From NCBI GenBank assembly GCA_002269645.1, contig NIVC01003551.1, positions 38,309-91,723 of the forward strand: a DNA stretch of 53,415 nt, given 5' to 3'. Positions 1 to 23,076 of this stretch are shown piece after piece. The notes beneath the pieces are model-generated. The model worked only from the letters and a program-made list of their open reading frames with translations. It made no database searches and was not told where the DNA came from. The translations under genes were made by a program, and so were the position numbers. Every line of letters begins with the position of its first letter. Positions within the stretch are counted from its first letter, which is position 1. Source of the stretch: Macrostomum lignano. Its lineage: Eukaryota.

Positions 1-2
1 CC

Positions 3-482
3 TGCAGCATTGGTGTACGCAGAATTAACTGTCCATATATACCCAAAATTGGCAGAATTAGCGCGCGCCCACCCACCCCATAACGTCTATAGAATTAACT
101 GTCCATATTAACTGTCCATATATACCCAAAATTGGCAGAATTAGAGCGCGCCCGCCCACCCCATAACGGTCCATATTATTACTTGTCCATATTTACTGTC
201 CATATATACACCCAAAATTGGCAGAATTAGCGCGCGCCCACCCACCCCATAACGTCCATATTATTACTTGTCCATATTTACTGTCCATCCCAAAATTGTT
301 GTACGCACAGAATTGTAGCGCCCGCCCACCCCATAACTGTCCACATTATTGCTTGTCCATATTTACTGTCCATATATACACCCAAAATTGGTGTACGCAC
401 AGAATTGTCTGTGACCCCCACAAAATTGGCGGTCCCACGCGGAGGCATGATGAGTCAGCCGCTGTAAATCGCCGCTATCCAC
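3..482 (+). repeat. Left terminal inverted repeat containing ~5 imperfect 80-90 bp subrepeats
   Basis: TGCAGCATTGGTGTACGCAGAATTAACTGTCCATAT (from base 3) is the reverse complement of ~9778-9813. CACGCGGAGGCATGATGAGTCAGC...GTAAATCGCCGCTATCCAC matches ~9497-9545. CCCAAAATT recurs at ~42, 124, 211, 289, 381. Confidence 0.92.
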
Positions 483-641
483 ACTGTTATATCCACTCCT
501 TCCATACTTCACTCTCTAGAATTCAGCCCTCGTCGACACTCCGAGACAATTACGTCATCCACCAACCCCCTCTCCCAAATAAGTTTTCAAAAGGCGTATA
601 TATATTTACACAAAAAGCCGGCCGAGCTTTGATACGTATAT

Positions 642-1269
642 TTATTTAGCATACACAATTGGGTGACGACCCAAAACATTTGAATAATAGCGAGCAGGAG
701 CATTTTGCAAACAGTTTACAATCAAGTATGAGTAGGGGTCGCGAGTAGCATCCTCATACGTTTTGACAAAACTTTTTGGATTAGTGGGGACCAGCTGCCT
801 TGCAATATGAGACACTGTGCTGGCATCCCGTACATTGCGGAATAAAACAAGGTAGTTCGAATTGAGCGACTGAGTTCGGTGCTCCTTACCCTTTGCAAAC
901 AGGTTTTGCACAAGATACCAAAGTCGGAACCCCACGTGGGAGACTTTGCGCGTGAAAAAAGTTGTAAAAGCGCCACTCTTTTCCATGGCATGCATTTGGT
1001 CGTCGACGACAAGCAGAATATTTGGTTCAGGGACATATTGTTCAGGATCAAATGTACACGAACGAAAATTTACAGGGTACGGCAATTCAAACAGTTCAGG
1101 ATCCGGATAGTGGCCAAACCAGTCTACGCGAATCGGCTTCGGATCTTGAAAAAATTCTTGTCTCAATAGGTTTTTCACAAGTGTGGTCTTGCCGCTTTGA
1201 GCCACCCCAGCAAAAATTGCCGGTTTTGGGGGCAAATTTTAAAGAGTCGGGGTCTATTGTTTGATACAT
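642..1269 (-). CDS. A32/FtsK-type DNA packaging ATPase (frameshift near 5' end)
   Basis: Walker A GVAQSGKT, Walker B LLVVDD, Polinton-type SH...VQNLF...RTQSLNSNYLVLFRNVRD. The ATG at 1269 (MYQTIDPDSLKFAP) joins the main frame if one A is removed from a run near 1225. Confidence 0.93.
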
Positions 1270-1292
1270 TTTGATAGGCAGCCCAATCATAT

Positions 1293-1741
1293 TTATGGAT
1301 GATGCTGCTTTATTTGTAGACAGTGATTCTGCACCATCAAGTCGTTCTCGTAAAGATTTGTGCTATAACAGTCGCGCAATATTTTTTCAATTGACAGACC
1401 CTCCAGAAAGTGTTTTCAGCCACAAATATTACATGAGCCCCGCAGGTCACACTCAGCGGATGCTGTACAGGATGCCGGTTCATGGCCACCTCCACAGGGA
1501 CATACTTTGCGATCCACAACTTTAATAAATCTGGCACAGGATCGATACACAAGGGGTCAAAAAATGTCACGCTCTCATCGGCATGAAGACAAATTAAAGC
1601 CCAGTGAGTGCCTGGTAGATTGCCAGTGTCAAAGTTAATCACGTATGCAGCAGGATAAACAGGCTGCGGAATCCTGTCAACTGGTGTTACTCGAACAGGG
1701 ACAGGTAGTATTAGACGTTCTAATATATCTAGACTATTCAT
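1293..1741 (-). CDS. Adenain-like maturation cysteine protease (frameshift near 3' end)
   Basis: INFDTGNLPGTHW, FFDP, VQHPLSVTCGAH give the His/Asp/Gln/Cys catalytic set. Adding one A near 1415 restores the typical tail KHFLEGLSIEKILRDCYSTNLYENDLMV, ending at 1293. Confidence 0.9.
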
Positions 1742-1787
1742 ATCGGCATGAATATGGTCGTTATTCGAGAATAAAAAATGTTTGTTT

Positions 1788-3051
1788 CTACACGTAGTCT
1801 AGAATAACCTGACGACCGCGAGTGATTTGCACAGTATTGTCAAAGTAGCCAAACACCAACACGTTGATTCCTGCGGCCAAGGCAGCAGAAAACTTTATTT
1901 GTAGCGTCAGATTCCCTCGCTCGCGAGGCATGCTATGCCCGCCCAGCTCCATGTCGGGCATGAGATTCCAGGCGAAGAAGCAGTAGCCAGCTCCATAGTC
2001 GGAATATGATACGTCAATATCCAGGTCCCGATTCATCTTTCCTAGGCTTTTTAGTAGCATGGCATACTCGCGAGCATAGTTATGAACACCGAATCGAGGA
2101 GTAAACGGTTGTCCACACAGACTGACTCCGTCCTTATACAGAGCGACACTGTCTGCCCAAACGGTTCAAAATTAAACGGGTTATGTGTAGCCACACCGTT
2201 GTATGCGCCGCTGTTCACCATGCCAACAACCACTAGTTTAGGCTTTTGTTCAGGAAATATATTATTGATTGACATGTCCCGAACACCGCCAGCCACTGAA
2301 GTATTGTGCATTCTGTTTGCATTCTGTTTGCCTAGTTGTTCTTCAATCTCCAATGCCAATTGGGGGTTTGCCTTGACGCGGCGCACATGTAGTTTGGCAC
2401 TCTCGAGTACTAGCCGCGCATCAACCCCGTCCGCGTGGTTTTCCAGAACGAAGCCGGAATTGTGCATGGTCAGCGTAATTACCATATCAGTGTATGGCAG
2501 TAGCATTCGGTCGTTGGTAACAAAAAAGTCTAAACTAAGAGGTCCATAAAGGTGAAAGGTGCGTGAGTTTGCCGCCATCGCCTTGCGGGCTACAAAGCCA
2601 GGATTTCCAACCACAGCCATTTGACCTCCAGCGTCCTTTGCGTAGCCCATCATTCTCAGTTGATTAGTTTTTGAATCGTGTCCGTAATTCAAACACGTGA
2701 GAATATAGGCCTTGTAAGCGTGGTTGTTATTGCTCGACTCTACGTGTGTCCCGTTGATTGTCAACGTGACGTTTTTAAACATGCTTTCAAGGACGTAATT
2801 GACCGGCGCAACATTCGAATCAGCAGCAAGATTTGTACCATTAGACTGCTTAACGCGGGCCTTAATCTCGAGGTCAATGTCGTTAAGATCGATAAACGTC
2901 TCACCACCAACAATCCTAAATTCGACCACGCTGGCATTTTCAACACTGGCAACAGGGTGAACTTCTTCAGTGGTGGCGCTAATTGCAGCAATTTGGTGTG
3001 CGCGAGGAGCAAAAGCTCGAATTCCGACTTTGTACACAGGCACTCAGTCAT
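1788..3051 (-). CDS. Double-jelly-roll major capsid protein (Polinton PY/hexon-like), split by two frameshifts
   Basis: N-terminus MTECLCTKSEFELF from ATG 3051 (shift near 3011); core PVNYVLESMFKNV...HAYKAYILTCLNYGHDSKTNQL...NPFNF; after a shift near 2135 YKDGVSLCGQPFTPRFGVHNYAREYAMLLKSLG...GAGYCFFAWNLMPD...FDNTVQI. Confidence 0.92.
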
Positions 3052-3095
3052 TTTTTCTTTCAACAGCGGCTTAGTGTGGTGCTTTAATAGACAGA

Positions 3096-3464
3096 TCACT
3101 TATTGGCACGGGTTTTTTTATTTATAGAGTCGAAAATATCAGAATGCTGCAGTCTTTTTCTCGTTTTTTTGTTAGTCATCTTTCTTCGTCTTTGTCTGCC
3201 GCTACCTCGTTGTGCGACTGTGTCCTTGAAAGCATCTTTAGCTGCCTGGACAGAGTTACGCAATGCCGCTTCTTTCAAGTTCCCGCCTTGATCGAGTGTG
3301 TCGCTAACTGTTGTAGCTAGGGCTCGTGTTCCGTGGCGAAGAATATTTTTGCCAAAACTCTTTAAAATTGGCAGGGCAAATCGGGCAATGCTGCCAAACA
3401 GGCCGTTGCCGCGCTGTGCACCGGAAAATACCGGTAAAGCTCCTCCGATCAAGATTGAAGGCAT
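3096..3464 (-). CDS. Small basic virion protein with amphipathic helix (adenovirus pVI-like / 'cupiennin'-like adintovirus protein)
   Basis: QRGNGLFGSIARFALPILKSFGKNILRHG amphipathic helix, second QRGSG motif followed by an Arg/Lys-rich tail; located between penton and MCP as in animal Polintons. Family name is from recall. Confidence 0.7.
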   Translation of the reverse strand: MPSILIGGALPVFSGAQRGNGLFGSIARFALPILKSFGKNILRHGTRALATTVSDTLDQGGNLKEAALRNSVQAAKDAFKDTVAQRGSGRQRRRKMTNKKTRKRLQHSDIFDSINKKTRANK

Positions 3465-3508
3465 ATTGTCGATCAGTTGCTACCTTTTATTCGTGAAAAC
3501 TTCTTTAT

Positions 3509-4662
3509 TTATAGCTTAATTTCACGAATGTTGATCGATAAAACAGTTTTGCCTCGAAGAATCCGATCCATTAACTTGCCCATATCGTCACAGATTTGCA
3601 CCTCAATGGTTTTGAATGGGTGTTTCACCAACGGTAAGTAGGATGGATTGACAAACTCGTAGTACTCTCGTTCGCCGTATACCTTTTCATTCAAAGGAAT
3701 TGCCCCAAGCAGGGGGACTTTGACGTCTCCAACAATGGCAGAGTCGACAATATTTGAATAGATGTACATAGTTTGTACACCATTTGTTAAATCGATTGGT
3801 CGTTTAGCGGTCTTTGGAGTTTCATTGAAAACATCTTCGCGAAAGCCGAGAATGGCAGCAAGCTCTCCAATGTCGAATAAAATGTTTTCAATGGGTTTGT
3901 ACTCACACCGGTTCAGAAAAGGGTTGTAGTGGAATGCATCCACTCTCGTCGCTGGACTTATTGGGAGCTTTGAAACGACGCCCCAAAGCGCTCCATTAAC
4001 ATAATTTAAGAGCTCATCAGGCGTGCGGTAGAATCCTTTAGCAATCCGCAGTGACGTTCTAGAAGGCCAGACACTCTTTTCAAACGTTAGAGTCATCGGA
4101 CTCTCTATGGAGGAGGAGGACTCCAATTCTATAGCGAATACTAACGAATTTCTTGGGTTTAATAAAAAAGTCGTTACTTCGATATTTGATTTATTTCCAG
4201 CGTCATCAACCTTTTTAAACATGCTACGCACATTACTGGACAGCCTAATGTTCGCACCATACCATGATTTGTTCACAATTGAAATTTGGCCTTCCTGTGA
4301 ACGCTCAATGCAAATCATCGCATTATCGTCTTGCTCATATTTTAGATCGGCGATGATTGCATCAACCACTTCGTTGGCTGTTGATAGCCCCGCGGCGAGA
4401 GAAACCGACGCAAACTGTTTATACGTGGAGGCGGGTTTTTCTCTCACCTCAATGTCAATCACTTCATCCTCGGAGCGTTGGTCAGGACATCAACCATTCG
4501 ATTATCGGGGACGGTTTTGAATTCTTTACAAAAGTAGATCCGTTCGATGCAGACTTCATGATTCGGAAAGTGGAGGGTGTCGGGCAAATTAATGCTATAA
4601 TGTGCCGAATTATTCTCAGGATAGTGCTCAACGCACGCATTGCTAGGTAGGAATAGATGCAT
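3509..4662 (-). CDS. Minor capsid protein (penton, Polinton PX), frameshifted near 4462
   Basis: N-terminal LFLPSNACVEHYPEN...INLPDTLHF...EVCIERIYF (4459-4662) and C-terminal DLTNGVQTMYIYSNIV...VGDVKVPLLGAIP...PSYLPL...FKTIEVQICDDMG (3509-4462). Confidence 0.88.
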
Positions 4663-4696
4663 TGTAATATACTACACATTTCGAGTGTATGTGTGT

Positions 4697-5763
4697 TCAT
4701 CCTTGTCTTATATTTATAACTTCCTCAACTGGTACAAATGCATTGAACGACTCGGATAGCCGCGCCAACTAACGAAATGATGAGCGACACCATTGATGAT
4801 GACATTGCGACGCAGAATTTTGTCTATAACAAAGCGGTCCGGTCGAACCGTCTTTGAAAGTTCATTATAGTAGAATCGACCCTCGATTTGTTCTCCAGAT
4901 AGGTCGGAAATGCGATAAAAATGAGGCGGTCCCGGGCATACTTGAGACACAACGTAAACTTCTTCGCTGTACATATCGTATGCTTCCTTGTCAAAGGCTC
5001 GACGAGATTTTGAAATTCTGACAAAGTCCCCTTTTTGGTAAACTGGTTCATCATATTCAGGATCCTTGTAGAGCTTTTCCCACAATTCTTTTTGATTGTG
5101 CAGACCGACACTCGAAGGTTTCATATCAATAGTAGAGTGTACTGTGTTGTTGTAACTTTCAACCAATATTGGCAAATAGTCGATCCAACGCCACGTGTTT
5201 TTATGCTCAAAGTAGCGAGCTAAACGTTTTCGGAGAGTCCTAATCAGCCTTTCAGCCATATTTGCCTTGTATACAGAGTTTGTACTGTACATTTTGATAT
5301 TATGGGCTTTCAGTAAGTTCTGCATGCGATTGTTATAAAACTCGGTACCTCGATCAACGTGTAGATATAAAGGCTTAATGGGGAAGTCTTTGATCATGCT
5401 TTCAAAAGCCTTTGGAGTGTCGCTTTTCAATTTTATTGACTGACAAAAAGCCAATTTACTAAGCACGTCAATTGCAACTAGAATATATCGATGACCATCA
5501 TTCCATTGTTCGTATCGCGACATGTCCATCAAATCCGCTTGCACAGTTTCCATGAAGCCTCCCGACATTACTTTTCCGGTTCGGAATTTTCTTTTAACCC
5601 TCTTGTGCCGGGTGTAGCTCGATTGGGTCTTCAGCCATTCGTCTGTTTGGCGTCTCGTCAGGGAGGGGACCAGCCGTTTGGCCTCCTGATATACACGGGC
5701 AGCATTTGTAAAAGCGGCGTCCCCCTGTTCGTACACTCTCCGAAGAGCGGTTTTCACCCTCAT
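4697..5763 (-). CDS. Retroviral-like (RVE) DDE integrase with C-terminal chromodomain
   Basis: QADLMDM, VDRGTEF, AERLIRTL (D-D-E); C-terminal FVIDKILRR...FVSWRGYP. One extra T restores SRFNAFVPVEEV ending at 4697. First ATG is at 5763. Confidence 0.95.
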
Positions 5764-5900
5764 TCGCAACTAGATTCGATGCACAGCATGAGTAATTACA
5801 CTTGAACTCCACAGACGGTTTGTCTGAGCAAAGCTTTGAAGTTACAGCTGCGGCACCCATGATCCAAAAACAGATTATAAATCATGAAAATGATTTCTAT

Positions 5901-6551
5901 TTATAGTTTTTTTAACGTCTCGTATTTTACTGCTGGTTTCTGCCGCCTCTTTGGTTCGCGAAGTTGGTATGAAGCATGCCTGTAGGCATTGCTGCCACGA
6001 TCTTCATATTTTTTAATTTCATTCAGGCCACTGGCTTGGTCTTTGTGGAAGTCGTTGTAGAAATCATTAGTTCCAATTGCTTGCTCGACTAAAAAATCGT
6101 CTCGATCCGGATCCGTGCCGACTTCTTTTTTCACACTGACTTCTTCTTGTTGGCGTCGTCTAGTAGAGCTTTTGCAATATCTGCCTCTTCGGCCAGGGCC
6201 CAAAAAAGCGGTACTATATTTTGGGCTTGGGCGGTCGCGCCTTTCATTCGATGTAATCTCCTTCAATAGATCGAAAATATTGCTTCCTGGCCAGGTTTTT
6301 CCATCAAATACAATTTCCCACGACTTGTTGTACTCCAAATTTGGGTATCTTTCTGCCAGCATGTCCCAAACACGTTGTTGTCGTTCAGGAAAGCGATTAC
6401 TCTTCTTTTGCTTGATCTGACTTAGTTTATTTTGGAGTTGAGTGTTGTATTCAATGAGTTTTTCATATTCTGTTTTGGATGCAATTTCTCGGGGTGCGCC
6501 TTGACTTAGTCTATTAAATTCTTCTTCTGGTACAACAACGTATTTATTCAT
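5901..6551 (-). CDS. Conserved Polinton hypothetical protein (GSNIxDL motif), probable internal frameshift near 6205
   Basis: MNKYVVVP start and WEIVFDGKTWPGSNIFDLL resemble a gene commonly found at this position in animal Polintons (recall). ATG at 6551 abuts the upstream stop codon. Confidence 0.65.
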   Translation of the reverse strand: MNKYVVVPEEEFNRLSQGAPREIASKTEYEKLIEYNTQLQNKLSQIKQKKSNRFPERQQRVWDMLAERYPNLEYNKSWEIVFDGKTWPGSNIFDLLKEITSNERRDRPSPKYSTAFLGPGRRGRYCKSSTRRRQQEEVSVKKEVGTDPDRDDFLVEQAIGTNDFYNDFHKDQASGLNEIKKYEDRGSNAYRHASYQLREPKRRQKPAVKYETLKKL

Positions 6552-6552
6552 T

Positions 6553-6909
6553 TTAGCGACCAAGTAGTCCGCCAAACAGGCTTGATATTAGCGGTGCAGC
6601 AACGAATGCAAGGATGGGTAGAAAGCCACCGACTTGAGGATTCGAGAGAAGCATATTTTTCTTCCTATTTATAGACAATTTTGTGTCTGCCAATTCACGC
6701 AACGATCTTCTGTATCGCTTTAATCGCAGATACTGTTTCGGAGAAAGATCGATATTTCCCCGGAGCACGTTGTGACTCAATTCACAGAGACAATGAATCA
6801 GTTCCTTGCCTGCACCTCGAATAATGGCCCGCCGAAGAGCGGGACGGGCTTTGGCGAGCTCTGCGAGCTCGCCGCGACAAGAACATAGTCTGGAGATTCC
6901 GTTTGTCAT
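6553..6909 (-). CDS. Conserved Polinton protein with adenovirus pX-like C-terminus
   Basis: LIHCLCELSHNVLRGNIDL...LKRYRRSLRELA...QVGGFLPILAFVAAPLISSLFGG. The GGFLP plus hydrophobic tail parallels adenovirus pX. Likely start is ATG 6909, 53 nt below a TATA motif. Confidence 0.75.
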   Translation of the reverse strand: MTNGISRLCSCRGELAELAKARPALRRAIIRGAGKELIHCLCELSHNVLRGNIDLSPKQYLRLKRYRRSLRELADTKLSINRKKNMLLSNPQVGGFLPILAFVAAPLISSLFGGLLGR

Positions 6910-7049
6910 TTTGTTTAGCAAAAAGATGTTGGTTGCAGTGCACTGCAATTTATGCACAATATATTTATAGACAATTTCATAGCAGCTTGTACGTACATAC
7001 AAATTCGGTACAGTGGTAAAGCAGTAAAGTTACGCAACAGCTACATGGA

Positions 7050-7529
7050 TTAGGCATGCAAAACGCTAGTCACATGATCGTACATTTGACAGAGCTCTTT
7101 AAAGTTTCGTATTCCAAGGAAAACAAGGCGGCCATTCTTTCCGCATAATAAACATTTAGCATTGCGAAATGGAGACTTTATTACTATTCCATTGAAAACT
7201 TCACACTCCCACTTCACCCAGCGGGACCCGGAGTATGCAATTTGGAAAAAAATTGGCCATCTGTCTACTTCAGCGCGGTAAGTACTAGTGGTAACAACAA
7301 CAGAAATTGGTTTACATTGAGGAAAAAGACGCAAAACTTGGTTGATGGAGCGACAACCGAATACAATTGCAGACAAAGAACGCTGAAAAAAGTTGATTGT
7401 ACATTTTCCTATTCGCAAATTGATAAGAGCTCTTGGTCTGCGAAATTTCCGTGCGCTCGCCCAGTCCAAGTCAGGCATGCGGCTCCATTTCGCGCAAAAC
7501 ACTCGGTTCACACACTCGACGTTCTGCAA
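7050..7529 (-). CDS. Divergent TATA-binding-protein (TBP)-like protein
   Basis: Manual alignment to the TBP core: VNRV...PDL vs QNIV...LDL; IVFGCRS vs VCTGAKS; WECEVFNG vs YEPELFPG; NGRLVFLGIRNFKELCQMYDHVTSVL vs [26 protein letters not shown]. Annotated start is TTG, not ATG. Confidence 0.7.
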   Translation of the reverse strand: MQNVECVNRVFCAKWSRMPDLDWASARKFRRPRALINLRIGKCTINFFQRSLSAIVFGCRSINQVLRLFPQCKPISVVVTTSTYRAEVDRWPIFFQIAYSGSRWVKWECEVFNGIVIKSPFRNAKCLLCGKNGRLVFLGIRNFKELCQMYDHVTSVLHA

Positions 7530-8260
7530 GTAGATTTTTCGGCTGTTTTTACTTTCGTATCCTTCTTTGGGGCTTTCGACCGCTTCTTTGATTCGTTGGC
7601 TGCTACTAGTTTCGATTGATGCTGTCGCTTTCTGGCCTGACTTTTAGGCACCTTTGGCTGCTTCTCCTTGACAAGCTTTGGTGGTTTCTTTGCTTTCTTG
7701 CTTACTTTCTTGACGCCTACCTTGATTTTTGGAGGTGGCGTCCAAAAGCAACGATCGAATGCCTGTTTGGCTTCTTCGACAAACTGTAGCTGTTGAATTT
7801 TTGGCATTGCGGTCAAAACAGCGTCTCGAATCACGGCCGTGTCGAGAGTAAACAGAATCCTGTAGTAGCCGCTCTTGTTTTTGTAATCCTCTACAGGCAG
7901 TCCGTTTTGGTCGTACATTTTAAAGTCGTGAGCCAGCCCAAACGCTGCACTGTCACCTCCAAACGCTGGGTTGTAGCCCAGCAGAGCTAGACTTTCGCTG
8001 GAAAGGTGCTCCGCCACAGTGTTGAAAGTGTAGGGTATGCAGCTTTCAATGTGTTTTTGTGCAATGATGATGAATTCGCGACCTTCGTTGTCAGTACGCA
8101 CGCCCTTGACGATCAAAACAGGGACCGCATTGGCCAAGTAGAGAGGTCCCTGTTCGTCATATTCAATGTCAAACGTTTCAACCCCGTTGAAGCTCGGACC
8201 TCGCGGTTTGAGTGCCAGCAGCTCTCGCTTGACGCAGTTGAAGTCTTGCACTGTCTCCAT
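7508..8260 (-). CDS. Hypothetical protein: globular domain (possibly OB-fold ssDNA-binding) plus Lys-rich tail
   Basis: Intact 250-aa ORF with ATG ~60 nt below TATATAAG. C-terminal ~70 aa are Lys/Pro/Ala-rich (KKVSKKAKKPPKLVKEK). Confidence 0.7.
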   Translation of the reverse strand: METVQDFNCVKRELLALKPRGPSFNGVETFDIEYDEQGPLYLANAVPVLIVKGVRTDNEGREFIIIAQKHIESCIPYTFNTVAEHLSSESLALLGYNPAFGGDSAAFGLAHDFKMYDQNGLPVEDYKNKSGYYRILFTLDTAVIRDAVLTAMPKIQQLQFVEEAKQAFDRCFWTPPPKIKVGVKKVSKKAKKPPKLVKEKQPKVPKSQARKRQHQSKLVAANESKKRSKAPKKDTKVKTAEKSTCRTSSV

Positions 8261-8275
8261 GTCTCTTGTCTGTTT

Positions 8276-8534
8276 AGAAAAATTTGCAGGTACGGGCGCT
8301 TGCAGATGCTCCGGGCTGGTGCTTATATACCCGAGAGTCTCAATAAGTTTTTGTTTTAATTACACGATAACGAGCTTTTTACAGAGTTGTCGTTATCGAG
8401 GATTCCGGAAAAATGAACCTTTTGTTCCTATTTTCGGGTGCTGGCGTTGGAGGTGTGCTGAAATCCTTGCTCCAAGTTGCTGGTAGTTCAAGCTTTGGCG
8501 GCCTGTTCCTCTTGTGCTTTGGCAGCCAAAAATT
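8276..8534. repeat. Internal direct repeat, copy A (~259 bp)
   Basis: Colinear with 8970-9224, e.g. GTGCTTATATACCCGAGAGTCTCAATAAGTTTTTGTTTTAATTACA is identical in both. Confidence 0.95.
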
Positions 8535-8891
8535 CCAAATCTTTTGTTGCTCCTCCCACGACGGATTATACAGATCTTGATGGTTCCGAAAACGTATTTT
8601 TTGGCGACGCTCTTCACTTAGTATCGGAGCCAGTAATCTCTCCATTCGTGCTAAATCAGCTTTGAATCTCATTTTGTCCCGTAGTTGCTCATTTATCCTG
8701 GCTGCTGCGTAGTCTTGGCTGTCGTAGGGGCCTTGATCAATTTCCTCGACCTTGGCATTGAAGGTGACTAATCGCTCGGAAATCGGTTTGCTGTGGCAAA
8801 TGCACAACCAGTCAGCAGATTTTTTCAAGGCCTCATATTCGTCTTTTTCCTCGTTCGATAATAGGGGGTAGTCTCTGGAAATCCAGCTCAT
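8379..8891 (-). CDS. Hypothetical element protein (ORFan)
   Basis: Intact 170-aa ORF downstream of a TATATAAG at 9013-9020; C-terminus shared with ORF 9084-9335. Confidence 0.6.
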   Translation of the reverse strand: MSWISRDYPLLSNEEKDEYEALKKSADWLCICHSKPISERLVTFNAKVEEIDQGPYDSQDYAAARINEQLRDKMRFKADLARMERLLAPILSEERRQKIRFRNHQDLYNPSWEEQQKIWNFWLPKHKRNRPPKLELPATWSKDFSTPPTPAPENRNKRFIFPESSITTTL

Positions 8892-8969
8892 TTCTTGTCA
8901 AGCACTTGCTGCGTTGTTCGCACTAGTGGTGGGGATGTTATTCGAGCTTGAAAAACTGTCGAGAATCCG

Positions 8970-9224
8970 AGAAAAATTTGCAGGTACGGGTGCTTGGTGC
9001 CCTTGGTTGGTGCTTATATACCCGAGAGTCTCAATAAGTTTTTGTTTTAATTACATGTTAACGAGCTTTTTACGGTGTTGTCGTTATCGAGGATTCCAGA
9101 AAAAAGAGACTTTTGTACCTATTTTCGGTGTTGGCGTTGGAGGTGTGTTGAAATCTTTGCTCAAAGTTGTTGGCAGTTCATGCTTTGTCGGTCTGATCCT
9201 CTTGTGCTTTGGGAACCAAAAATT
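8970..9224. repeat. Internal direct repeat, copy B (~255 bp)
   Basis: Imperfect copy of 8276-8534. Confidence 0.95.
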
Positions 9225-9335
9225 GCTTGTCAAACACTGCGTTTTCCACATGATTGGGTTGTTAATTGAACTTGGTGAATTTAGATAAGCGGCCGAGAAT
9301 CCAAATTTTCTTATTTTAGTTTGCTGTCTGAACAA
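9084..9335 (-). CDS. Truncated or degraded paralog of the 8379-8891 C-terminus
   Basis: NFWFPKHKRIRPTKHELPTTLSKDFNTPPTP vs NFWLPKHKRNRPPKLELPATWSKDFSTPPTP. Confidence 0.4.
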   Translation of the reverse strand: MFRQQTKIRKFGFSAAYLNSPSSINNPIMWKTQCLTSNFWFPKHKRIRPTKHELPTTLSKDFNTPPTPTPKIGTKVSFFWNPR

Positions 9336-9496
9336 AGTTGGTTTGGCATCTTGTTAAACGAGAATATTTCATGCATAGAAGTTTGTGTTTTCAGACCTTG
9401 ATGACGTGTCTGGCTATAAAGTTAGCATTGTGGCTCGACCGGGTTGTTGCGTAACACTGCTGCAGGTAGCTATAGCGGCCAGCGCAGGGCAGAGGG

Positions 9497-9813
9497 GTGG
9501 ACAGCGGCGATTTACTGGCTGACTGACTCATCATGCCTCCGCGTGGGGCCGCCAATTAATTGTGGGGGTCAAAGAATATTTTCTTGGATGGGTGGGCGCT
9601 ACAATTCTGTGCGTACACGAAGTTTGGTATATAAACAGCTATGGGGTGGGCGGGCGCTACAATTCTGCGCGTACACCAATTTTGGGATGGACAGTAAATA
9701 TGGACAAGTAATAATATGGACCGTTATGGGGTGGGTAGGCGCTCTAATTCTGCCAATTTTGGGTATATGGACAGTTAATATGGACAGTTAATTCTGCGTA
9801 CACCAATGCTGCA
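9497..9813 (-). repeat. Right terminal inverted repeat (fewer subrepeats than the left)
   Basis: Reverse-complement match to 3-482 with internal units missing. Confidence 0.92.
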
Positions 9814-10319
9814 TTGTGTGGGGATGGGGGCGCGCGCGCGCTTCTGCGTACAACAACTGCGATGCGCTAATTATGCGTACTATATTGTACTCGTCGCTGC
9901 TGTACGATACAGTGTACACTGATTACATGTATAGATTTTACATGAGAGCATAAATGTCTCACATAATGACTCTGGACCAATTAGAATCGGTCTAATGTAT
10001 TTAGATAGGCGTTGAATTTGCATTGGCTCTGACACCCACCTCACCTCCAAAACCCAGCAGAATCTGCACGATACGTAGTGTAGTTATATATTGCTTAAAA
10101 TTAGCTGGCTCAAGCTCGGAACTATACTGTACTGGATGTTTAAGTTCAAAATGCGATTCAAATCGTCCTTATGTTTATTCAAATTCGCGATACTGCGGTC
10201 AGGTCCAGAAAGTTGCGCTTTGTTCATTTCTTATGTCAAAACAAATTTAAGAACACTGGTGGATCCAAGGCGTCAAGAAGGTGATCGGCTGACTCCACCC
10301 ACACGAAAAAATTAGGGGG

Positions 10320-11760
10320 TCATGACCTCCGGGAAAAATCGTGGACCCGACACTGGTTCTCGCGATCCTGGTCCCGATCTTTCCTCTCCTAGCTTTATAG
10401 CTATGGCCCTTGCAGACGATCTGAAGCCTTTTTGGGATATCCGCACCCAAAAATCGGTGCTTGAAATTCTGCATGCGAGGCACACTGGCATCGTGAAAAT
10501 GGATCTGAAGGCTAAGGACTGTTTCTACTGGCCAGCGTGGAGGTATGGCTAGTGAATTTGAATCGTGCTGGCCAGCGTGGAGTAGGTGGCTAGTGAATTT
10601 GAATCGTGCTGGCCAGCGTGGAGTAGGTGGCTAGTGAATTTGAATCGTGCTGGCCAGCGTGGAGTAGGTGGCTAGTGAATTTGAATCGTGCTGGCCAGCG
10701 TGGAGGTATGGCTAGTGAATTTGAATCGTGCTGGCCAGCGTGGAGGTAGGTGGCTAGTGAATTTGAATCGTGCTGGCCAGCGTGGAGGTAGGTGGCTAGT
10801 GAATTTGAATCGTGCTGGCCAGCGTGGAGGTATGGCTAGTGAATTTGAATCGTGCTGGCCAGCGTGGAGGTATGGCTAGTGAATTTGAATCGTGCTGGCC
10901 AGCGTGGAGGTAGGTGGCTAGTGAATTTGAATCGTGCTGGCCAGCGTGGAGGTATGGCTAGTGAATTTGAATCGTGCTGGCCAGCGTGGAGGTATGGCTA
11001 GTGAATTTGAATCGTGCTGGCCAGCGTGGAGTAGGTGGCTAGTGAATTTGAATCGTGCTGGCCAGCGTGGAGTAGGTGGCTAGTGAATTTGAATCGTGCT
11101 GGCCAGCGTGGAGTAGGTGGCTAGTGAATTTGAATCGTGCTGGCCAGCGGAATATGAGGACTCAGTGCAAAGAACCGTTGATGGCTGTGGATAGGCCGAA
11201 TTTTCAGTTCAAAATTTGTTTGACGAATCTGTTTGAGTTCACTGGTGGGTCCTACTAAATTGGTGTACGTTGGCTCCTACAGCCGCTGGATGAGTGTCAC
11301 ACGGATGAGATCAACTACTAGCTTGGCTGTGGCGAATGTCATACGGGAAAATTTTCAAAACTTTGGAGCGCCAGAGAAGCTGCTAGTCAGTGATGGAGGT
11401 CCGCAGTTTTCTGCTCGGGAGTTTCGACAGAAAATGGCTGAGTTCAAGGTGGAACACAGAATTTCAAAGTCCAGCGTAGCCAAAAGCATGCTGAAGAAAT
11501 TCTCCGAGACAGGCCAAAGTCTGGAGCTGGCATTTGCTTCACTACCGCAACGCACCAGTCGGCAGCGGCTTTCCAAGCCCGGCGAAGATGGCTCTCGACC
11601 GTATGCTTCATAGTGACCTGCCAGGGACTGTCAAGGACCCGCGACCAAAGGAAACTCGTATTCACTCCAGCATTGAGGCTTTTGTAAGAAAGTGCGGTAG
11701 AGCAGCGCAGCTGTACAATCGTGGAGCTCGACAGTTGCGGAAACTATCGGCTGATGATCT
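10320..11760 (+). pseudogene. Decayed Ty3/Gypsy-type integrase fragment
   Basis: LHARHTGIVKM...AKDCFYWP (zinc-binding region), then CKEPLM, LFEF, YSRW, FGAPEKLVSDGGPQFSAREF, HYRNAP...SPA, spread over shifting frames. Confidence 0.85.
10528..11149 (+). repeat. Minisatellite, ~15 copies of a 40-43 bp unit
   Basis: Unit CTGGCCAGCGTGGAG(G)TA(GG)TGGCTAGTGAATTTGAATCGTG, head-to-tail. Confidence 0.97.
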
Positions 11761-12988
11761 GGTACATCAGACAGAAAGCAGAGAAAGCTTTTAAATGGTA
11801 TATCATACATGTATATATATTCGGCAGAGTTTGATTCGTCATGTTCTGTGAATTTATATCTGGAAGAAGTTCGGTTCGGATCAGAATTATAATGCAAAGA
11901 TGCGACGAGTAAGTAACGTCACAAAATAGGTTGTTTGCTAGCCAAGAGGTGACACTGGTTGTGCAGTGGACGACTAACGAGTGCTTTGCGGCTGTCTCAC
12001 TGTCAATCTCTTGGTACGCGCGTCTGCGGCGCCTAATTTGTTTTCTTTCACCGTTTACTTTCTGAATAGCTTTGTAAATCTAGATACTGTCAACTTCTTT
12101 CTCACGCAGTCCAGACTCATCTCTTCATCATTTTTTTCTTCACTCGCGCAGCCAAAATAAGCCGTACAGACTTTGGTCTACAGAGTAGTGCAAGGTCTAC
12201 AGTTAGGCTACCATCTCAAGTGCAAATTAGCGATGTAGCTTAGCAGAATAATGTGCGCGCAAGTCTGATGGCTGCATGTGAAGGTAATTCTGCAAGTCTA
12301 TCCATTCTTCCACCCTGCCGCAGACGCCCAAAGAGTCCTGAAAAGGTCTAACAACGGGCCGCATTTTCAAGTAACTCATCGTCCAAGCCCACAATTTATT
12401 TGACTTGGAGCCAATGATCTTCGTCTCCATTTTCTCTGCCCCACCTAAGAAAACCAGATTCAGCTCAGCCCCCAGCTAATTGCGCAGTTTTTACACTTTG
12501 CTTGGATTGAAGCGCGAGCTTTTTTCTCTTTCTTTTGTACTCTGCATTCGCTGATCCAGTCAGACTGCTCTTTCGGGCCACGAAGGCGGGCAAAAACACT
12601 AGGCATAAAAGTAGGAAGACGGTGTGCAAACAGCTGGGTCTGAGTCAACAAGATTCCTTGACGCTTGTCACGAAAAACGCCAAGTCGCAAATAGCAAGTG
12701 AGAATCTTCTGCGGAATCGCTTATAAATACCTAAATACTTGAGTGTTGGAGCACTTGAGTTTAGTCGTATACCTGCTTCTTTGGAGTTGCTCTGATTATT
12801 AAGTTTCTATGCTCTGAAAGCAGCCGAGCAGAAGCAGGAAAGGAAGTGAAAAAAGATACAGATCAAAGCTCGGTGGTCGTGCCGGCATGGTCTGATACAA
12901 GACCCCGCATGCACCAGCTCAAGAGCGCCAGCTGAGCGAGACATAAGCCACAGCGAGGAGAGACGCAACTGAGATACGCAGGTGAAAA

Positions 12989-14248
12989 ATGTTAAAGCTG
13001 CGACGCTCGCGAGGAAAGGAGCGCGAGGTAAAACCGGCCAGCGACGATGAGGTGCCAATCAAGCCGGCTGCAGAAGACCCAATGCATCAGCAGCAGAAGA
13101 AAGGCAAGAAGCAGCCAGCCATTGTCAGCTTCTTCAAACGGATCAAGCTGCGCCGACGGCTGTTTGCGCGCAGTCGCAGTCGAAGCCGCAGCCGCGACCG
13201 TCGACGTCAGAACTCGCCGTTGCGAAAGCGCAGCGACAACGAAGGCACTGATGAAGACGTCGCGGACGGCAGCGGCTCACCGGGCGCCTACGACATCTGC
13301 CCGCTGCCACCACCGGGCCGGAAACTCCGCAGCGCCTCAGCCTTCACCTCCGTCCGGCTCAACGCCTGGACCAGCCCCTACGATTTTGCCGTTCAAACCG
13401 ACCGCCTGCTGGTCCCTGGCCTGGACGTGGCCGAGTTCTCCCTGGCCCAGCCTTGCCGGACGCAGGGCGACGCCAGTAGCTGGCCAGCCAGCCTGGGCCA
13501 CCGCGCGCCGCTGTGCATCGATGCGACTCCGGGTCTCATCTACCTCACCGCTATTAGCACCTCCGGCCGCTGCGGTCTCTTCGTCTTCGATAGGGCTGGC
13601 CGGCTGGCCGCCTCCCGGCTGGAGGCTTCAACTCGTCGGCAACGAAGTGACGGAGGAGCGACGGCGCATCCGTCCAGACCGGGTATGTTCGCCGTGCGAG
13701 TCAACTTCCGTGGCGAGTGCTGGGTGACGAACCCGCGCCAACTGACCGTGGACCACTACACGCCGGCGCCGGCACTGAAGCGGATTCGCAGCATCGACGT
13801 TGCCAGGTTCGGCGTGCCCTACTACCTCGCCGTGCCCGGCCACCGCCTGACCTGCCTGTGGGTCTCGTTCCCCGAGACCCGCCGCGTGGTGAAGTTCGAC
13901 TGGCTGACCCTGGAGCCGCTCTGCCACCTCAGCTACCCGGCTGGTCAGTCGCCGTGCGGTCTTCATCTCGATGAGCGTTTTGACCAGCTGTACGTCACGG
14001 ACATCGGGACGGGTCACGTGCTGGTGTACCGAGCGGGCAGCATGGGCCTGGCCGTCGCTTGCACTCGTGCAGCGAACGCGGTGTTGACCGCGGCCAGCGG
14101 TGGCGGCGGCTTGACAGGCCAACGGCCTGCAGCGGTGCGTCTAGTCAGCAAAGGGTCCCGCGCGCTGCTGCTGCTGCTGAGGTGCCCGGCGGCCACCGAC
14201 TGCCGGGTAGACGCGTACACTGTGGCGTTTGAAGATGACGTTGACTGA
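12989..14248 (+). CDS. Intronless NHL-repeat / beta-propeller protein with basic N-terminal extension
   Basis: 419-aa GC-rich ORF with ATG. Blade-like motifs PGMFAVRVNFRGECWVTN, PYYLAV...LWVSFPETRRVVKFD, PCGLHLDERFDQLYVTDIGTGHVLVY. Confidence 0.75.
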   Translation: MLKLRRSRGKEREVKPASDDEVPIKPAAEDPMHQQQKKGKKQPAIVSFFKRIKLRRRLFARSRSRSRSRDRRRQNSPLRKRSDNEGTDEDVADGSGSPGAYDICPLPPPGRKLRSASAFTSVRLNAWTSPYDFAVQTDRLLVPGLDVAEFSLAQPCRTQGDASSWPASLGHRAPLCIDATPGLIYLTAISTSGRCGLFVFDRAGRLAASRLEASTRRQRSDGGATAHPSRPGMFAVRVNFRGECWVTNPRQLTVDHYTPAPALKRIRSIDVARFGVPYYLAVPGHRLTCLWVSFPETRRVVKFDWLTLEPLCHLSYPAGQSPCGLHLDERFDQLYVTDIGTGHVLVYRAGSMGLAVACTRAANAVLTAASGGGGLTGQRPAAVRLVSKGSRALLLLLRCPAATDCRVDAYTVAFEDDVD

Positions 14249-15128: not shown

Positions 15129-16101
15129 ATGCTGCTCAGGTCTGCTCAGCTTCGAATCTGCATTGTCATCTGTTCGGCTGTGCTATTCACCTGCTCAGAT
15201 TCCTGCATTATGAGACCCTGTGAGTCATCTTTTCTGCCTCTTGTTGTGCACAGAATTGCTTTGATTCGCATCTCTGCTTATTTTCAGCTTATTCGATTTA
15301 AATTCGGCTTATCTCAGTCTACTATAACCTCAGCTCACTGAATCTTATTCCGTTACATTCATGTAGATTTGAGTTCAAGCTGCCTTAAAATAAGTTGAAA
15401 AATTGAAAAAATTAACTTCGAATCTTAGAAGAGCCAGTTTTATCCTTCTTATAAAACTAATTTTACAGAAATATAAAGTCTAAAAGTGCCACGCGTAAGA
15501 CACTGAGGAAAACATAGCAGAATGACCTGGAAACTTGGTTTCTTAGAGAAGCCTTTACACAATATATAAAAAGATCACTGATAGTTTTGCTTTCTCTGAA
15601 AGAATAATGCAATCATATTGTATTAAATCTGATGTGGCGCATATTGGCTTCCACTCTCGGCAATGTATTTTTCGCGTTGAAAGTTCTATGTTGGATTGTC
15701 GATCGATCCATGAGCATCGCATCCTCCAATTGCCATTTGTTGAAACTTCAGTTAAGAAGAAGAAAGTTGACGAGTTCATCAACACGAAAGTGGTGCCCAC
15801 TCGTGCCGTGGCCACTCTGCTCGGCTGCTTTGTCTCGGGCAGCGAGGTCCGCGACCTGCCCGTATTTGCCGGCTCTTTTGACGCGAACAGTCCCAACAAT
15901 TGCAACGACAGGTGTCACGCCAAGCTGAAAAAGTACTTTGGGCTGCACAATGGCAAGGAGTGCTGGTGCGGGGACAGCTACGGGAACATCTCGCCGAACC
16001 CCGCGACATTGGTCAACTGCTACATGCCCTGCCCGGGCAATAGCAAGGAGAAGTGCGGCGGTCCGAAGCACAACTCGGTGTACAATGTTTCGAATTACTG
16101 A
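15129..16101 (+). CDS. Small secreted WSC-domain protein; exons 15129-15219 and 15752-16101
   Basis: Signal-peptide exon MLLRSAQLRICIVICSAVLFTCS with GTGAGT donor; phase-1 compatible acceptor CTTCAG at 15751; WSC pattern LGCF...NCNDRC...YFGLHNGKECWCG...CYMPCPGNSKEKCGG...NSVY. Confidence 0.8.
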
Positions 16102-18492: not shown

Positions 18493-21162
18493 CAGGGGCG
18501 TAGGGAGGGGGGGATAGGGGGGATGTATCCCCCCCGAAGAGCCTGACCAAAACTTTTTTGTTGCCCTTTGTTGCTATACATGCTACCATGTGACTCTGTC
18601 ATAGCACTTTTACCTTGGTGTATCCCCCCCGTAGGAAATTCACCTTGGTGTACCTCCCCGTAGGAAATTCACCTTGGTGTACCCCCCCCCGTAGGAAATT
18701 CACCTTGGTGTACCCCCCCGTAGGAAATTCACCTTGGTGTACCCCCCCCCGTAGGAAATTCACCTTGGTGTACCCCCCCCCGTAGGAAATTCACCTTGGT
18801 GTACCCCCCCCGTAGGAAATTCACCTTGGTGTACCCCCCCCGTAGGAAATTCACCTTGGTGTACCCCCCCCGTAAGAAAATTCACCTTGGTGTACCCACC
18901 CCCGTAGGAAATTCACCTTGGTGTATCCCCCCGTAGGAAATTCACCTTGGTGTACCCCCCGTAGGAAATTCACCTTGGTGTATCCCCCCCGTAGGAAATT
19001 CACCTTGGTGTACCCCCCGTAGGAAATTCACCTTGGTGTATCCCCCCGTAGGAAATTCACCTTGGTGTACCCCCCTCGTAGGAAATTCACCTTGGTGTAC
19101 CCCCCGTAGGAAATTCACCTTGGTGTACCCCCCTCGTAGAAAATTCACCTTGGTGTACCCCCCGTAGGAAATTCACCTTGGTGTACCCCCCTCGTAGAAA
19201 ATTCACCTTGGTGTACCCCCCGTAGGAAATTCACCTTGGTGTACCCCCCCGTAGGAAATTCACCTTGGTGTATCCCCCCCGTAGGAAATTCACCTTGGTG
19301 TACCCACCTCGTAGGAAATTCACCTTGGTGTACCCCCCCCGTAGGAAATTCACCTTGGTGTATCCCCCCCGTAGGAAATTCACCTTGGTGTATCCCCCCC
19401 GTAGGAAATTCACCTTGGTGTATCCCCCCCCGTAGGAAATTCACCTTGGTGTATCCCCCCCCGTAGGAAATTCACCTTGGTGTACCCCCCCGTAGGAAAT
19501 TCACCTTGGTGTACCCCCCGTAGGAAATTCACCTTGGTGTACCCACCTCGTAGGAAATTCACCTTGGTGTACCCCCCCCGTAGGAAATTCACCTTGGTGT
19601 ACCCCCCCGTAGGAAATTCACCTTGGTGTATCCCCCCGTAGGAAATTCACCTTGGTGTATCCCCCCCGTAGGAAATTCACCTTGGTGTATCCCCCCCGTA
19701 GGAAATTCACCTTGGTGTACCCCCCGTAGGAAATTCACCTTGGTGTACCCCCCGTAGGAAATTCACCTTGGTGTACCCCCCCCCGTAGGAAATTCACCTT
19801 GGTGTACCCCCCGTAGGAAATTCACCTTGGTGTTATCTCCCCCCGTAGGAAATTCACCTTGGTGTTATCTCCCCCCGTAGGAAATTCACCTTGGTGTTAT
19901 CTCCCCCCGTAGGAAATTCACCTTGGTGTTATCTCCCCCCGTAGGAAATTCACCTTGGTGTTATCTCCCCCCGTAGGAAATTCACCTTGGTGTTATCTCC
20001 ACCCGTAGGAAATTCACCTTGGTGTATCCCCCTCGTAGAAAATTCACCTTGGTGTACCCCCCCCGTAGGAAATTCACCTTGGTGTTATCTCCCCCCGTAG
20101 AAAATTCACCTTGGTGTATCCCCCTCGTAGGAAATTCACCTTGGTGTTATCTCCCCCCGTAGGAAATTCACCTTGGTGTTATCTCCCCCCGTAGGAAATT
20201 CACCTTGGTGTATCCCCCCGTAGAAATTCACCTTGGTGTATCCCCCTCGTAGAAATTCACCTTGGTGTTATCCCCCCCGTAGAAATTCACCTTGGTGTAT
20301 CCCCCCGTAGGAAATTCACCTTGGTGTTATCTCCCCCCGTAGGAAATTCACCTTGGTGTTATCTCCCCCCGTAGGAAATTCACCTTGGTGTATCCCCTCG
20401 TAGAAAATTCACCTTGGTGTACCCCCCCGTAGGAAATTCACCTTGGTGTACCCCCCGTAGGAAATTCACCTTGGTGTACCCCCCCGTAGGAAATTCACCT
20501 TGGTGTACCCCCCGTAGGAAATTCACCTTGGTGTTATCTCCCCCCGTAGGAAATTCACCTTGGTGTTATCTCCCCCCGTAGGAAATTCACCTTGGTGTTA
20601 TCTCCCCCCGTAGGAAATTCACCTTGGTGTTATCTCCCCCGTAGGAAATTCACCTTGGTGTTATCTCCCCCCGTAGGAAATTCACCTTGGTGTTATCTCC
20701 CCCCGTAGGAAATTCACCTTGGTGTATCCCCCTCGTAGAAAATTCACCTTGGTGTATCCCCCCGTAGGAAATTCACCTTGGTGTTATCTCCCCCCGTAGA
20801 AAATTCACCTTGGTGTATCCCCCTCGTAGGAAATTCACCTTGGTGTTATCCCCCCCGTAGGAAATTCACCTTGGTGTATCCCCCCGTAGGAAATTCACCT
20901 TGGTGTTATCCCCCCCGTAGGAAATTCACCTTGGTGTATCCCCCCCGTAGAAAATTCACCTTGGTGTATCCCCCCCGTAGGAAATTCACCTTGGTGTTAT
21001 CTCCCCCCGTAGGAAATTCACCTTGGTGTTATCTCCCCCCGTAGGAAATTCACCTTGGTGTTATCTCCCCCCGTAGGAAATTCACCTTGGTGTTATCTCC
21101 CCCCGTAGGAAATTCACCTTGGTGTTATCTCCCCCCGTAGGAAATTCCTGTCTACGCCCCTG
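18493..21162. mobile_element. Non-autonomous hAT-type DNA transposon filled by a minisatellite
   Basis: 11-bp TIRs CAGGGGCGTAG (18493) and CTACGCCCCTG (21152-21162); perfect 8-bp TSD GTCGTGGC at 18485-18492 and 21163-21170. Confidence 0.88.
18609..21146 (+). repeat. Minisatellite, roughly 85 copies of a ~28-32 bp unit
   Basis: Unit C(5-9)GTAGGAAATTCACCTTGGTGTA; variant ...GGTGTTATCT becomes common after ~19830. Confidence 0.98.
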
Positions 21163-22458: not shown

Positions 22459-23076
22459 CTACGAGTTGACCTCCCTGCATACGCAGTACTCACTTAACGT
22501 CCCGTTTACGAGATCGTTGGCGGCAGTCGCCAGGGCTCTGGCGCAGTCCCAGCACAGGATGTAATCTCGTTTGTAGCGCTGCTCCTGCCTGCTGAAGCTC
22601 TGCTGCAGCCATCTGGACTCTGCGACGGATTCCGCCGATTGCTCCGCTTGGGCGTCCGTCACACCGCCGAGCTGGCGGAGCAGGCAGGCGGTGACATACA
22701 GGCGGCGCTCGATCTTGACCGAATTGCAGGCCAGAGATCGCAGGCCCTCCGCGTTCTCGGCCAGCCGGAAGCTTTGCAGGAACTGCAGCGTCAGCTGCGT
22801 GGCGTTGAGCGCTCGCCGATTTGGCGTGTCAAAGCCCAGCGTCGACTGGTTCAATGAGGGCAGCAGACTGCGCTTCCGGTGGCTGCAGGAGGAGCCGAGC
22901 GGCAGTCGCTGCTCGAGTCGGCCGGCGATGTCCCGCAGGCCCTCCACAGCCTCGATCAGCATGTCAGCCGCCTCGCCCTGCAGGAGAGTCAGGCAGTCGC
23001 CGGGGCTCGCCTGGCCGTTTGAGATGGTAATGGCGACAAGTGCAAGAAGACCTAATAGAGCCTGTGTTGTCAGCAT
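22459..23076 (-). CDS. Secreted, predicted alpha-helical protein (205 aa, intronless)
   Basis: Signal peptide MLTTQALLGLLALVAITISNG, amphipathic Leu-rich segments, several Cys, basic sites HRKR and RYKR. Confidence 0.75.
   Translation of the reverse strand: MLTTQALLGLLALVAITISNGQASPGDCLTLLQGEAADMLIEAVEGLRDIAGRLEQRLPLGSSCSHRKRSLLPSLNQSTLGFDTPNRRALNATQLTLQFLQSFRLAENAEGLRSLACNSVKIERRLYVTACLLRQLGGVTDAQAEQSAESVAESRWLQQSFSRQEQRYKRDYILCWDCARALATAANDLVNGTLSEYCVCREVNS

What the first reader, a model, noticed from the sequence alone, without database searches (positions are those of the whole stretch)
1..9813. TIR-bounded Polinton with full virion module and integrase but no DNA polymerase
Seen: matching TIRs enclose ATPase, protease, MCP, penton, two small virion proteins and integrase, and no unassigned gap is large enough for a ~1000-aa pPolB; no helicase is visible either. 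Known: canonical Polintons of 15-20 kb carry a protein-primed PolB. Inference: this is either a deletion derivative or a satellite-like endogenous virus that makes capsids and integrates but borrows replication from a helper Polinton or host enzymes.
Basis: partly seen in the sequence, partly recalled or inferred. Interest (0 to 1): 0.85.

Follow-up and report, generated by a model that had tools for sequence, protein, structure and literature searches.

The report
Polinton virus copy lacking DNA polymerase
An integrated virus-like element in an animal genome has capsid, packaging and integration genes but no DNA polymerase, so it probably needs a helper to be copied; it also carries an unusual TATA-binding-like gene.

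Summary
The core observation holds. Inverted repeats (3-482, 9497-9813) enclose a one-strand Polinton gene array; 7663 of 9014 interior nt are assigned and the largest gap is 605 nt, so no pPolB fits. No polymerase, primase or replicative helicase family was found. Corrections: the window starts inside the left TIR, the right end probably runs to ~9881, no TSD can be tested, and at least 8 frame changes break the genes as assembled. Relatives form a distinct, conserved clade (integrase 100/100); the only named one is from Macrostomum lignano. Whether they carry pPolB is unknown. Two relatives share an 8848-bp longest contig, close to this element's interior length, but no ATPase hit shows that length. 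Mobile polB-less Polintons beside full-length sisters are already reported in butterflies. Best reading: a helper-dependent, pPolB-less derivative of a new Polinton lineage (0.5). A stable replicase-free satellite lineage is not excluded (about 0.22).

The parts
3..482 (.). Left TIR, built of ~85-bp subrepeats; outer end cut by window start
642..1269 (-). Packaging ATPase (A32/IVa2 type); frame change near 1235
   Evidence: 6 of 8 hits at 79-87%; frames; Pox_A32/Adeno_IVa2 in 2 of 7 aligned members
1300..1741 (-). Adenain-like maturation protease (ORF as read 1337-1741); probable frame change near 3' end
   Evidence: His/Asp/Gln/Cys motifs recalled; no database hit; position after MCP matches PMC8097293 section 7
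1788..3051 (-). Major capsid protein, in three frame pieces (changes near 3010-3040 and 2150-2170)
   Evidence: ORF tiling; identity from recalled Polinton MCP motifs and synteny; no database hit
3096..3464 (-). PW-like small basic virion protein, open
   Evidence: name recalled; position between penton and MCP as
3509..4662 (-). Penton (minor capsid), two frame pieces (change near 4470-4490)
   Evidence: recalled motifs and synteny; no database hit
4690..5763 (-). rve integrase, DDE residues present; frame change near 4750 in the chromodomain-like tail
   Evidence: Pfam rve E 2.4e-8; 7 relatives at 64-71%; alignment; clade 100/100
5901..6551 (-). PZ-like conserved Polinton protein; probable frame change near 6210
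   Evidence: name from recalled motifs, not tool-confirmed
6553..6909 (-). PM/GasderminX-like small protein with pX-like C-terminus, open
   Evidence: name recalled; class described in PMC8502044 section 3.2
7050..7544 (-). Divergent TATA-binding-protein-like gene, open frame, start codon unclear
   Evidence: profile vs PDB: best E 3.2e-5, 36 of 39 listed sequences are TBP or TBP-containing; atlas 0.94 to TBP clusters; relative P0048 hits NCBIfam TBP E 3.5e-5
7508..8260 (-). Probable OB-fold ssDNA-binding protein (CP312R/gp2.5-like); tail frame differs from relatives
   Evidence: 6 relatives 56-60%; low-confidence models (pLDDT 41-42), top VIA hit ASFV CP312R Z 4.4 and 4.9; Foldseek PDB nothing
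8276..8534 (-). Copy 1 of 259-bp repeated cassette with TATATAAG, upstream of the SSB-like gene
   Evidence: 88% to copy 2; mismatches 7/6/6 over codon positions, so not coding-constrained
8379..8891 (-). ORF170, unknown; last ~50 codons run into the cassette
   Evidence: no significant hit
8970..9224 (-). Copy 2 of the repeated cassette, upstream of ORF170
3119..6969 (-). Six TATAAATA boxes (6969, 6673, 5905, 4718, 3513, 3126), each 49-142 nt before a gene start
   Evidence: 6 on coding strand, 0 on the other, 2 in the remaining 43,515 nt; shuffle mean 0.18, max 3 in 500
9497..9813 (.). Right TIR, part matched by the left arm
9814..9881 (.). Probable outer part of the right TIR, ending in ACT (alternative end 9891)
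   Evidence: GCGTAC motif continues at 9846 and 9875; weak similarity to subrepeats; inferred

Best explanation
A non-autonomous copy of a previously undescribed Polinton (adintovirus-type) lineage in an animal, probably a Macrostomum-like flatworm. It kept every core gene except pPolB. Shown: TIRs, integrase, ATPase, TBP-like gene, promoter-like boxes, absence of a replicase. Inferred mechanism: the repeated TATATAAG cassette drives early genes (ORF170, SSB-like, TBP-like); the TBP-like protein helps switch on the TATAAATA-preceded late genes; a pPolB/terminal protein from a full-length sister copies the excised DNA from the TIRs, with the element's SSB coating displaced strands; ATPase, MCP, penton and protease package it; integrase inserts it. 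pPolB was most likely lost from the early region (8260-9500), where repeated cassettes offer a substrate for a clean deletion. As assembled this copy is frameshifted, either by recent decay or by indel errors of the assembly.
For: No room or trace of pPolB. Relatives of SSB-like, integrase and ATPase occur in matching numbers (6, 7, 6) and form one clade with short tips, so this is a conserved lineage, not debris. A probable SSB is retained, and SSDBP labels occur in PolB-bearing adintoviruses (PMC8502044 Suppl. Fig S2). Mobile polB-less polintons coexist with polB-bearing sisters in Pieris mannii. TIR-flanked truncated virophages exist (PMC8547959 passages). ORF170 runs without a stop into a non-coding cassette, as a deletion join would (inference). 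0 in-frame stops in 2129 codons examined, against 7.6 expected if the TIR difference were age, so the arms differed at insertion, which fits a recombinant origin.
Against: No pPolB-bearing sister was seen. There is no pPolB remnant and gene packing is tight (gaps 1-159 nt outside the 605-nt stretch). P0002 (SSB-like) and P0010 (integrase) both list 2 contigs, longest 8848 bp, close to the 9014-nt interior, which hints that a 30-40% diverged relative is equally small. The SSB call rests on models with pLDDT about 41.
Confidence: 0.5

Rival explanations
1. The whole clade lacks a replicase: a stable ~9-10 kb satellite-like integrating virus with its own SSB and TBP, copied by an unrelated helper (another Polinton or a large DNA virus) or by host enzymes.
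For: 8848-bp contig size match for two relatives; SSB-TBP overlap conserved in 5 of 6 relatives, so pPolB does not sit between them; promoter boxes and all other core genes kept; non-identical TIR arms despite stop-free coding; published screens often require pPolB and would miss such elements (passages).
Against: None of 8 ATPase hits lists 8848 bp; an 8848-bp contig holding SSB and integrase still has room for pPolB; that the two proteins share one contig is inferred from equal numbers only; one locus; ten paper searches found no such animal lineage.
Confidence: 0.22
2. Assembly artefact: a collapsed or chimeric contig end joining reads of different copies and dropping pPolB.
For: Element sits at the window edge with a cut TIR; at least 8 frame changes but no nonsense stop; arms and cassette copies differ by 6-12%; frameshifts in long-read virophage assemblies proved artefacts on Sanger resequencing (PMC8547959).
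Against: Indel errors explain frameshifts but not a clean 3-4 kb loss; both TIRs, all other genes and promoter boxes are collinear; losing pPolB needs a repeat on both sides of it.
Confidence: 0.13
3. One segment of a bipartite virus: pPolB lies on a second TIR-sharing segment, as in segmented bidnaviruses.
For: Clean absence of pPolB with SSB kept; segmented pPolB viruses and independently mobile replication modules are reported (passages).
Against: No segmented Polinton found in the searches; no second segment in the remaining 43.5 kb.
Confidence: 0.07
4. ORF170 or the SSB-like ORF is an unrecognised initiator that recruits host polymerases, making the element autonomous without its own polymerase.
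For: ORF170 is unassigned; the SSB assignment is weak.
Against: Both are short (119 unique and ~178 core residues); no HUH, helicase or primase match.
Confidence: 0.05

Closest known systems
Group 1 / Beta-type Polintons (Mavericks, adintoviruses; Polintoviricetes)
   Same: TIRs, rve integrase with chromodomain-like tail, A32-type ATPase, and the order int-penton-PW-MCP-protease described in PMC8097293 section 7; PM and PZ-like genes (recalled).
   Different: No pPolB; ~9.9 kb against 12.7-24.6 kb for intact vertebrate elements; all genes on one strand with ATPase after protease; TBP-like plus SSB-like pair; integrase only 31-42% identical to outside relatives.
polB-less polintons of Pieris mannii and related insect SVs (bioRxiv 10.1101/2025.02.07.637071, section 13)
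   Same: TIR-flanked, lack polB, inferred to stay mobile; how they are copied is an open question there.
   Different: Those carry LINE or LTR cargo and have near-identical polB-bearing sisters; this one has no cargo, and sisters are unchecked.
Tlr1, PLVs, mid-GC EMALEs, Trichoplax/Capsaspora MELD viruses
   Same: Capsid module without pPolB; Tlr1 and EMALEs also have rve integrase.
   Different: They encode a substitute helicase or primase-helicase; none is found here.
MELD viruses with TBP; adintoviruses with SSDBP (PMC8502044 Fig 5 legend, Suppl. Fig S2)
   Same: TBP-like and SSB genes each occur in this virus group.
   Different: Those shown carry PolB-type genes; an overlapping SSB-TBP pair with matching TATAAATA boxes was not found in the searches.

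Membership tests
Polinton/Maverick (adintovirus) | [quoted passage not shown] | tested here: not met
   largest gap 605 nt; no Pfam hit
Polinton/Maverick (adintovirus) | rve integrase with DDE triad | tested here: met
   tail frameshifted
Polinton/Maverick (adintovirus) | Terminal inverted repeats | tested here: met
   arms imperfect
Polinton/Maverick (adintovirus) | 6-bp target site duplication | not testable with these tools
   left junction lies outside the window
Polinton/Maverick (adintovirus) | AG/AGT...CT/ACT end motif | tested here: inconclusive
   candidate right ends finish in a single ACT at 9881 or 9891; motif
Polinton/Maverick (adintovirus) | A32/FtsK-type packaging ATPase | tested here: met
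   2 of 7 aligned members hit Pox_A32 and Adeno_IVa2; the window protein itself does not
Polinton/Maverick (adintovirus) | Double jelly-roll MCP, penton, adenain-like protease | tested here: inconclusive
   recalled motifs and synteny only; no hit; not folded
Polinton/Maverick (adintovirus) | Size 13-25 kb | tested here: not met
   ~9.9 kb; range
PLV / Tlr1 / transpoviron-like | SF1/SF3 helicase, primase-helicase or PolA in place of pPolB | tested here: not met
TBP family (for 7050-7544) | TBP repeat similarity | tested here: met
   DNA binding untested
gp2.5/CP312R-type SSB (for 7508-8260) | OB fold of this type | tested here: inconclusive
   Z 4.4 (rmsd 5.4, 135 aligned) and 4.9 (rmsd 5.3, 146 aligned) on pLDDT ~41 models; BFVD best E 7e-3; Foldseek PDB and atlas blank
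Non-autonomous mobile Polinton family | Several copies with distinct insertion sites and a pPolB-bearing helper | not testable with these tools
   no host genome at hand; GTDB scans gave nothing related

The most novel reading that the evidence does not exclude
An old, widespread clade of ~9-10 kb integrating capsid-forming animal viruses that has no replicase at all, runs its own late transcription through a virus-encoded TBP and TATAAATA boxes, and is a satellite of a helper virus: a virophage-like lifestyle in flatworms, invisible to screens that start from pPolB.
Probability: 0.22. Interest if true: 0.8.

Novelty: new variant of a known kind. Interest (0 to 1): 0.5.

Why it matters
Polintons are defined by pPolB, and how polB-less copies are mobilised is an open question. 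If the clade is replicase-free it would be a satellite class that pPolB-based screens miss. Even as a derivative, the locus exposes a Polinton lineage with its own TBP-like gene and a sharp promoter-like motif before six genes, which makes Polinton transcription control directly testable. If it is a one-off deletion or mis-assembly, the missing polymerase itself is ordinary.

Tried and rejected
Ends at 3/9813 with TG..CA termini: rejected, because the two flank bases at 1-2 do not match a 4-6 bp duplication at 9814 and TIR motifs continue to ~9881. Hidden polymerase or helicase in other frames: none; alternative frames over 760-5760 were not scanned. The 259-bp repeat as a duplicated coding tail: rejected. 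Ageing as the cause of TIR mismatch: rejected at P about 5e-4 (the pieces were chosen as stop-free and the PRO and PZ tails were left out, so this is a lean, not proof). GTDB scans: 0 of 71 stretches confirmed for the SSB-like alignment; 2 of 601 for the ATPase, both unrelated P-loop matches, one with a 21-residue match to the element. PDB sequence searches for SSB-like, MCP, protease, penton, ATPase and ORF170 named nothing. Foldseek PDB and the atlas gave nothing for the SSB-like ORF. Rfam: 0 matches. The adintovirus protein files in the PMC8502044 supplement lay beyond the part held, so a motif check gave 0 hits and means nothing. Left open: whether P0002 and P0010 share one contig and whether an ATPase from it hides in a cluster; viral and metagenome contig collections and the host genome were unchecked; MCP, penton, protease and ORF170 had no homolog search or fold. 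No complex prediction was run.
Full report
Observation. Inverted repeats join the two ends of 1-9813: 36 nt at 100% (3-38/9778-9813), 87 nt at 97%, and further pairs; 178-482 aligns to 9497-9792 at 78% with gaps. The TIRs are built of ~85-bp subrepeats. The arms differ at 15 of 265 aligned sites with 10 gap runs. The match stops at position 3, but the right side keeps TIR motifs (GCGTAC at 9846 and 9875) to an ACT at 9881 or 9891; the similarity is weak (3 of 1000 shuffles, 2 of 380 host windows reach it). I infer that the window begins inside the left TIR, so no TSD can be tested.

Gene content. All genes lie on the minus strand: ORF170, SSB-like, TBP-like, PM-like, PZ-like, integrase, penton, PW-like, MCP, protease, ATPase. 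They cover 7663 of 9014 interior nt; the largest gap is 605 nt, far below the 3 kb or more that a pPolB needs (recalled size). Pfam found no polymerase, primase or replicative helicase in 23 ORFs (one below-cutoff P-loop match of the ATPase, E 0.012), in 102 further fragments (the other 11 of 113 listed were covered) or in 88 ORFs of the rest of the window. Integrase is tool-confirmed (rve E 2.4e-8; DDE). The ATPase is confirmed through relatives (2 of 7 members hit Pox_A32 and Adeno_IVa2). MCP, penton, protease, PW, PM and PZ are named from recalled motifs and from the order int-penton-PW-MCP-protease in PMC8097293 section 7; no library named them.

Missed genes. 7050-7544 is TBP-like: atlas score 0.94 to TBP clusters, 2 relatives at 63% and 41% among 1.84 billion representatives, profile E 3.2e-5 to archaeal TBP with 36 of 39 listed PDB sequences being TBP or TBP-containing. 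Its start codon is unclear. 7508-8260 has 6 relatives among 696 candidates at 56-60%. Two low-confidence models from overlapping alignments (pLDDT 42, 41) both gave ASFV CP312R as top of 48,161 chains (Z 4.4 and 4.9, next 3.2 and 3.0; phage Enc34 SSB rank 10 in the second). CP312R is described as ssDNA-binding (PMC9963768 passages). BFVD top hits are giant-virus proteins, none at E 0.001 or better; Foldseek PDB and the atlas were blank. This is a lead, not a result. The C-terminal tails of 5 of 6 relatives match best, among 1302 windows, over the 5' part of the TBP-like gene in a third frame, so the SSB-TBP overlap is a family trait.

Regulatory anatomy. TATAAATA occurs 6 times on the coding strand, each 49-142 nt before PM, PZ, integrase, penton, PW or MCP, never on the other strand, and twice in the other 43,515 nt; shuffles give mean 0.18, max 3 in 500. 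The protease has no such box. A 259-bp cassette with TATATAAG is present twice (88%), before ORF170 and before the SSB-like gene; its mismatches fall 7/6/6 over codon positions, so it is non-coding. An early/late programme with a virus-encoded TBP is my inference.

State of this copy. Frame changes are shown against relatives for ATPase, integrase tail and SSB tail, seen by frame tiling for MCP (2) and penton, and inferred for protease and PZ: at least 8. There are 0 in-frame stops in 2129 codons examined; 7.6 would be expected if half the TIR difference were neutral ageing. ATPase identity to 4 full-length relatives is 82-87% against 85-89% among them, and the integrase tip is 0.22 against 0.07-0.29 in its clade. 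So the copy is young or the breaks are assembly indels, as found for virophages in PMC8547959 (passages), and the TIR arms probably differed at insertion.

Relatives and host. Seven of 33 integrase hits are 64-71% identical and form a 100/100 clade with the window protein on a long stem (23 of the 33 hits were in the tree). Six of 8 ATPase hits are 79-87%. The only named relative is a Macrostomum lignano gene model (P0001, 57%). The window holds YAP/Yorkie-like exons (WW E 7e-10; TEADIR3 below cutoff), so the host is an animal; a Macrostomum-like flatworm is an inference. P0002 and P0010 both list 2 contigs, longest 8848 bp, near this element's 9014-nt interior. That they share a contig is inferred from the numbers; no ATPase hit lists that length, and such a contig could still hold a pPolB. 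GTDB scans found nothing related. Viral and metagenome contig collections and the host genome stayed unchecked.

Mechanism and rivals. Best (0.5): a pPolB-less derivative, copied in trans by a full-length sister that shares its TIRs, with pPolB lost from the early region where repeated cassettes allow a clean deletion. Rivals: replicase-free satellite clade (0.22), mis-assembly (0.13), bipartite genome (0.07), unrecognised initiator with host polymerases (0.05).

Literature. Polintons by definition encode pPolB and integrase; Tlr1 and PLVs replace pPolB by helicases (PMC5499653 passages; PMC11161782 passages). Mobile polB-less polintons beside polB-bearing sisters are reported in Pieris mannii (bioRxiv 10.1101/2025.02.07.637071, passages and section 13). 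TBP appears in a MELD virus legend and SSDBP in two adintovirus maps (PMC8502044, parts 1-3 of 6 and supplement part 1; its preprint 10.1101/697771 passages); the supplement's protein files were not seen and could hold relatives. Repeat-bracketed mobile replication modules are described in 10.64898/2026.10.13.758929 (passages, section 10 part 1, section 13). Polinton-related insertions in Rhabditophora are noted without detail in 10.1101/2025.04.19.649669 (passages; its supplements could not be seen). Passages only were read in 10.1101/2023.08.22.554363, 10.1101/2024.01.15.575659, PMC11131425, PMC11071296 and PMC11296320. Searches found no description of a Macrostomum Polinton or of a replicase-free animal Polinton clade; the library lacks most subscription papers and Repbase.

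Verdict. It works like a Polinton but fails the pPolB criterion, so it is filed as a Polinton-derived, pPolB-less variant. The absence is real in this sequence and has precedent; the lineage, its TBP-like/SSB-like pair and its promoter boxes look new. Interest 0.5.

Noticed in passing
window 10322-11610 (+): Degenerate gypsy-like integrase remnant (Integrase_H2C2 E 0.0012, rve E 4.9e-9) split by a 41-bp x15 tandem array at 10528-11149, about 450 nt right of the element.
   Followed up: partly
window 28178-29212 (+): YAP/Yorkie-like exons (TEADIR3 below cutoff, WW domain), marking an animal host.
   Followed up: partly
window 15547-16098 (+): WSC-domain ORF (E 2.4e-17).
   Followed up: no
window 12986-14248 (+), 22459-23106 (-), 41730-42182 (+): Long GC-rich host ORFs without Pfam hits; the last has a P-loop and looks Rab-like by eye (recalled).
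   Followed up: no
window 18612-21147, 33821-34404, 39070-39754, 43824-48228: Large tandem arrays: 30-bp x84, 16-bp x37, 16-bp x43, and 4.4 kb of TCTG-type repeat.
   Followed up: no
window 24610-24671 / 38324-38399 and 42203-42275 / 43182-43254: Further inverted repeat pairs, 13.7 kb and 0.9 kb apart; possibly MITE or transposon ends.
   Followed up: no
window 7050-7544 (-); P0048, P0049: The TBP-like gene has no in-frame ATG before its first repeat, and both relatives are annotated from internal starts; non-AUG start, splicing or frameshifting from the SSB-like ORF is possible.
   Followed up: partly
window 2307-2331: An 11-bp tandem duplication inside the MCP gene, possibly a real lesion rather than a single-base error.
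   Followed up: no
P0001: The M. lignano gene model fuses the SSB-like domain with unrelated flanks and an internal repeat; its UniRef name (PGA_cap) is probably wrong. The flanks do not match this element.
   Followed up: partly
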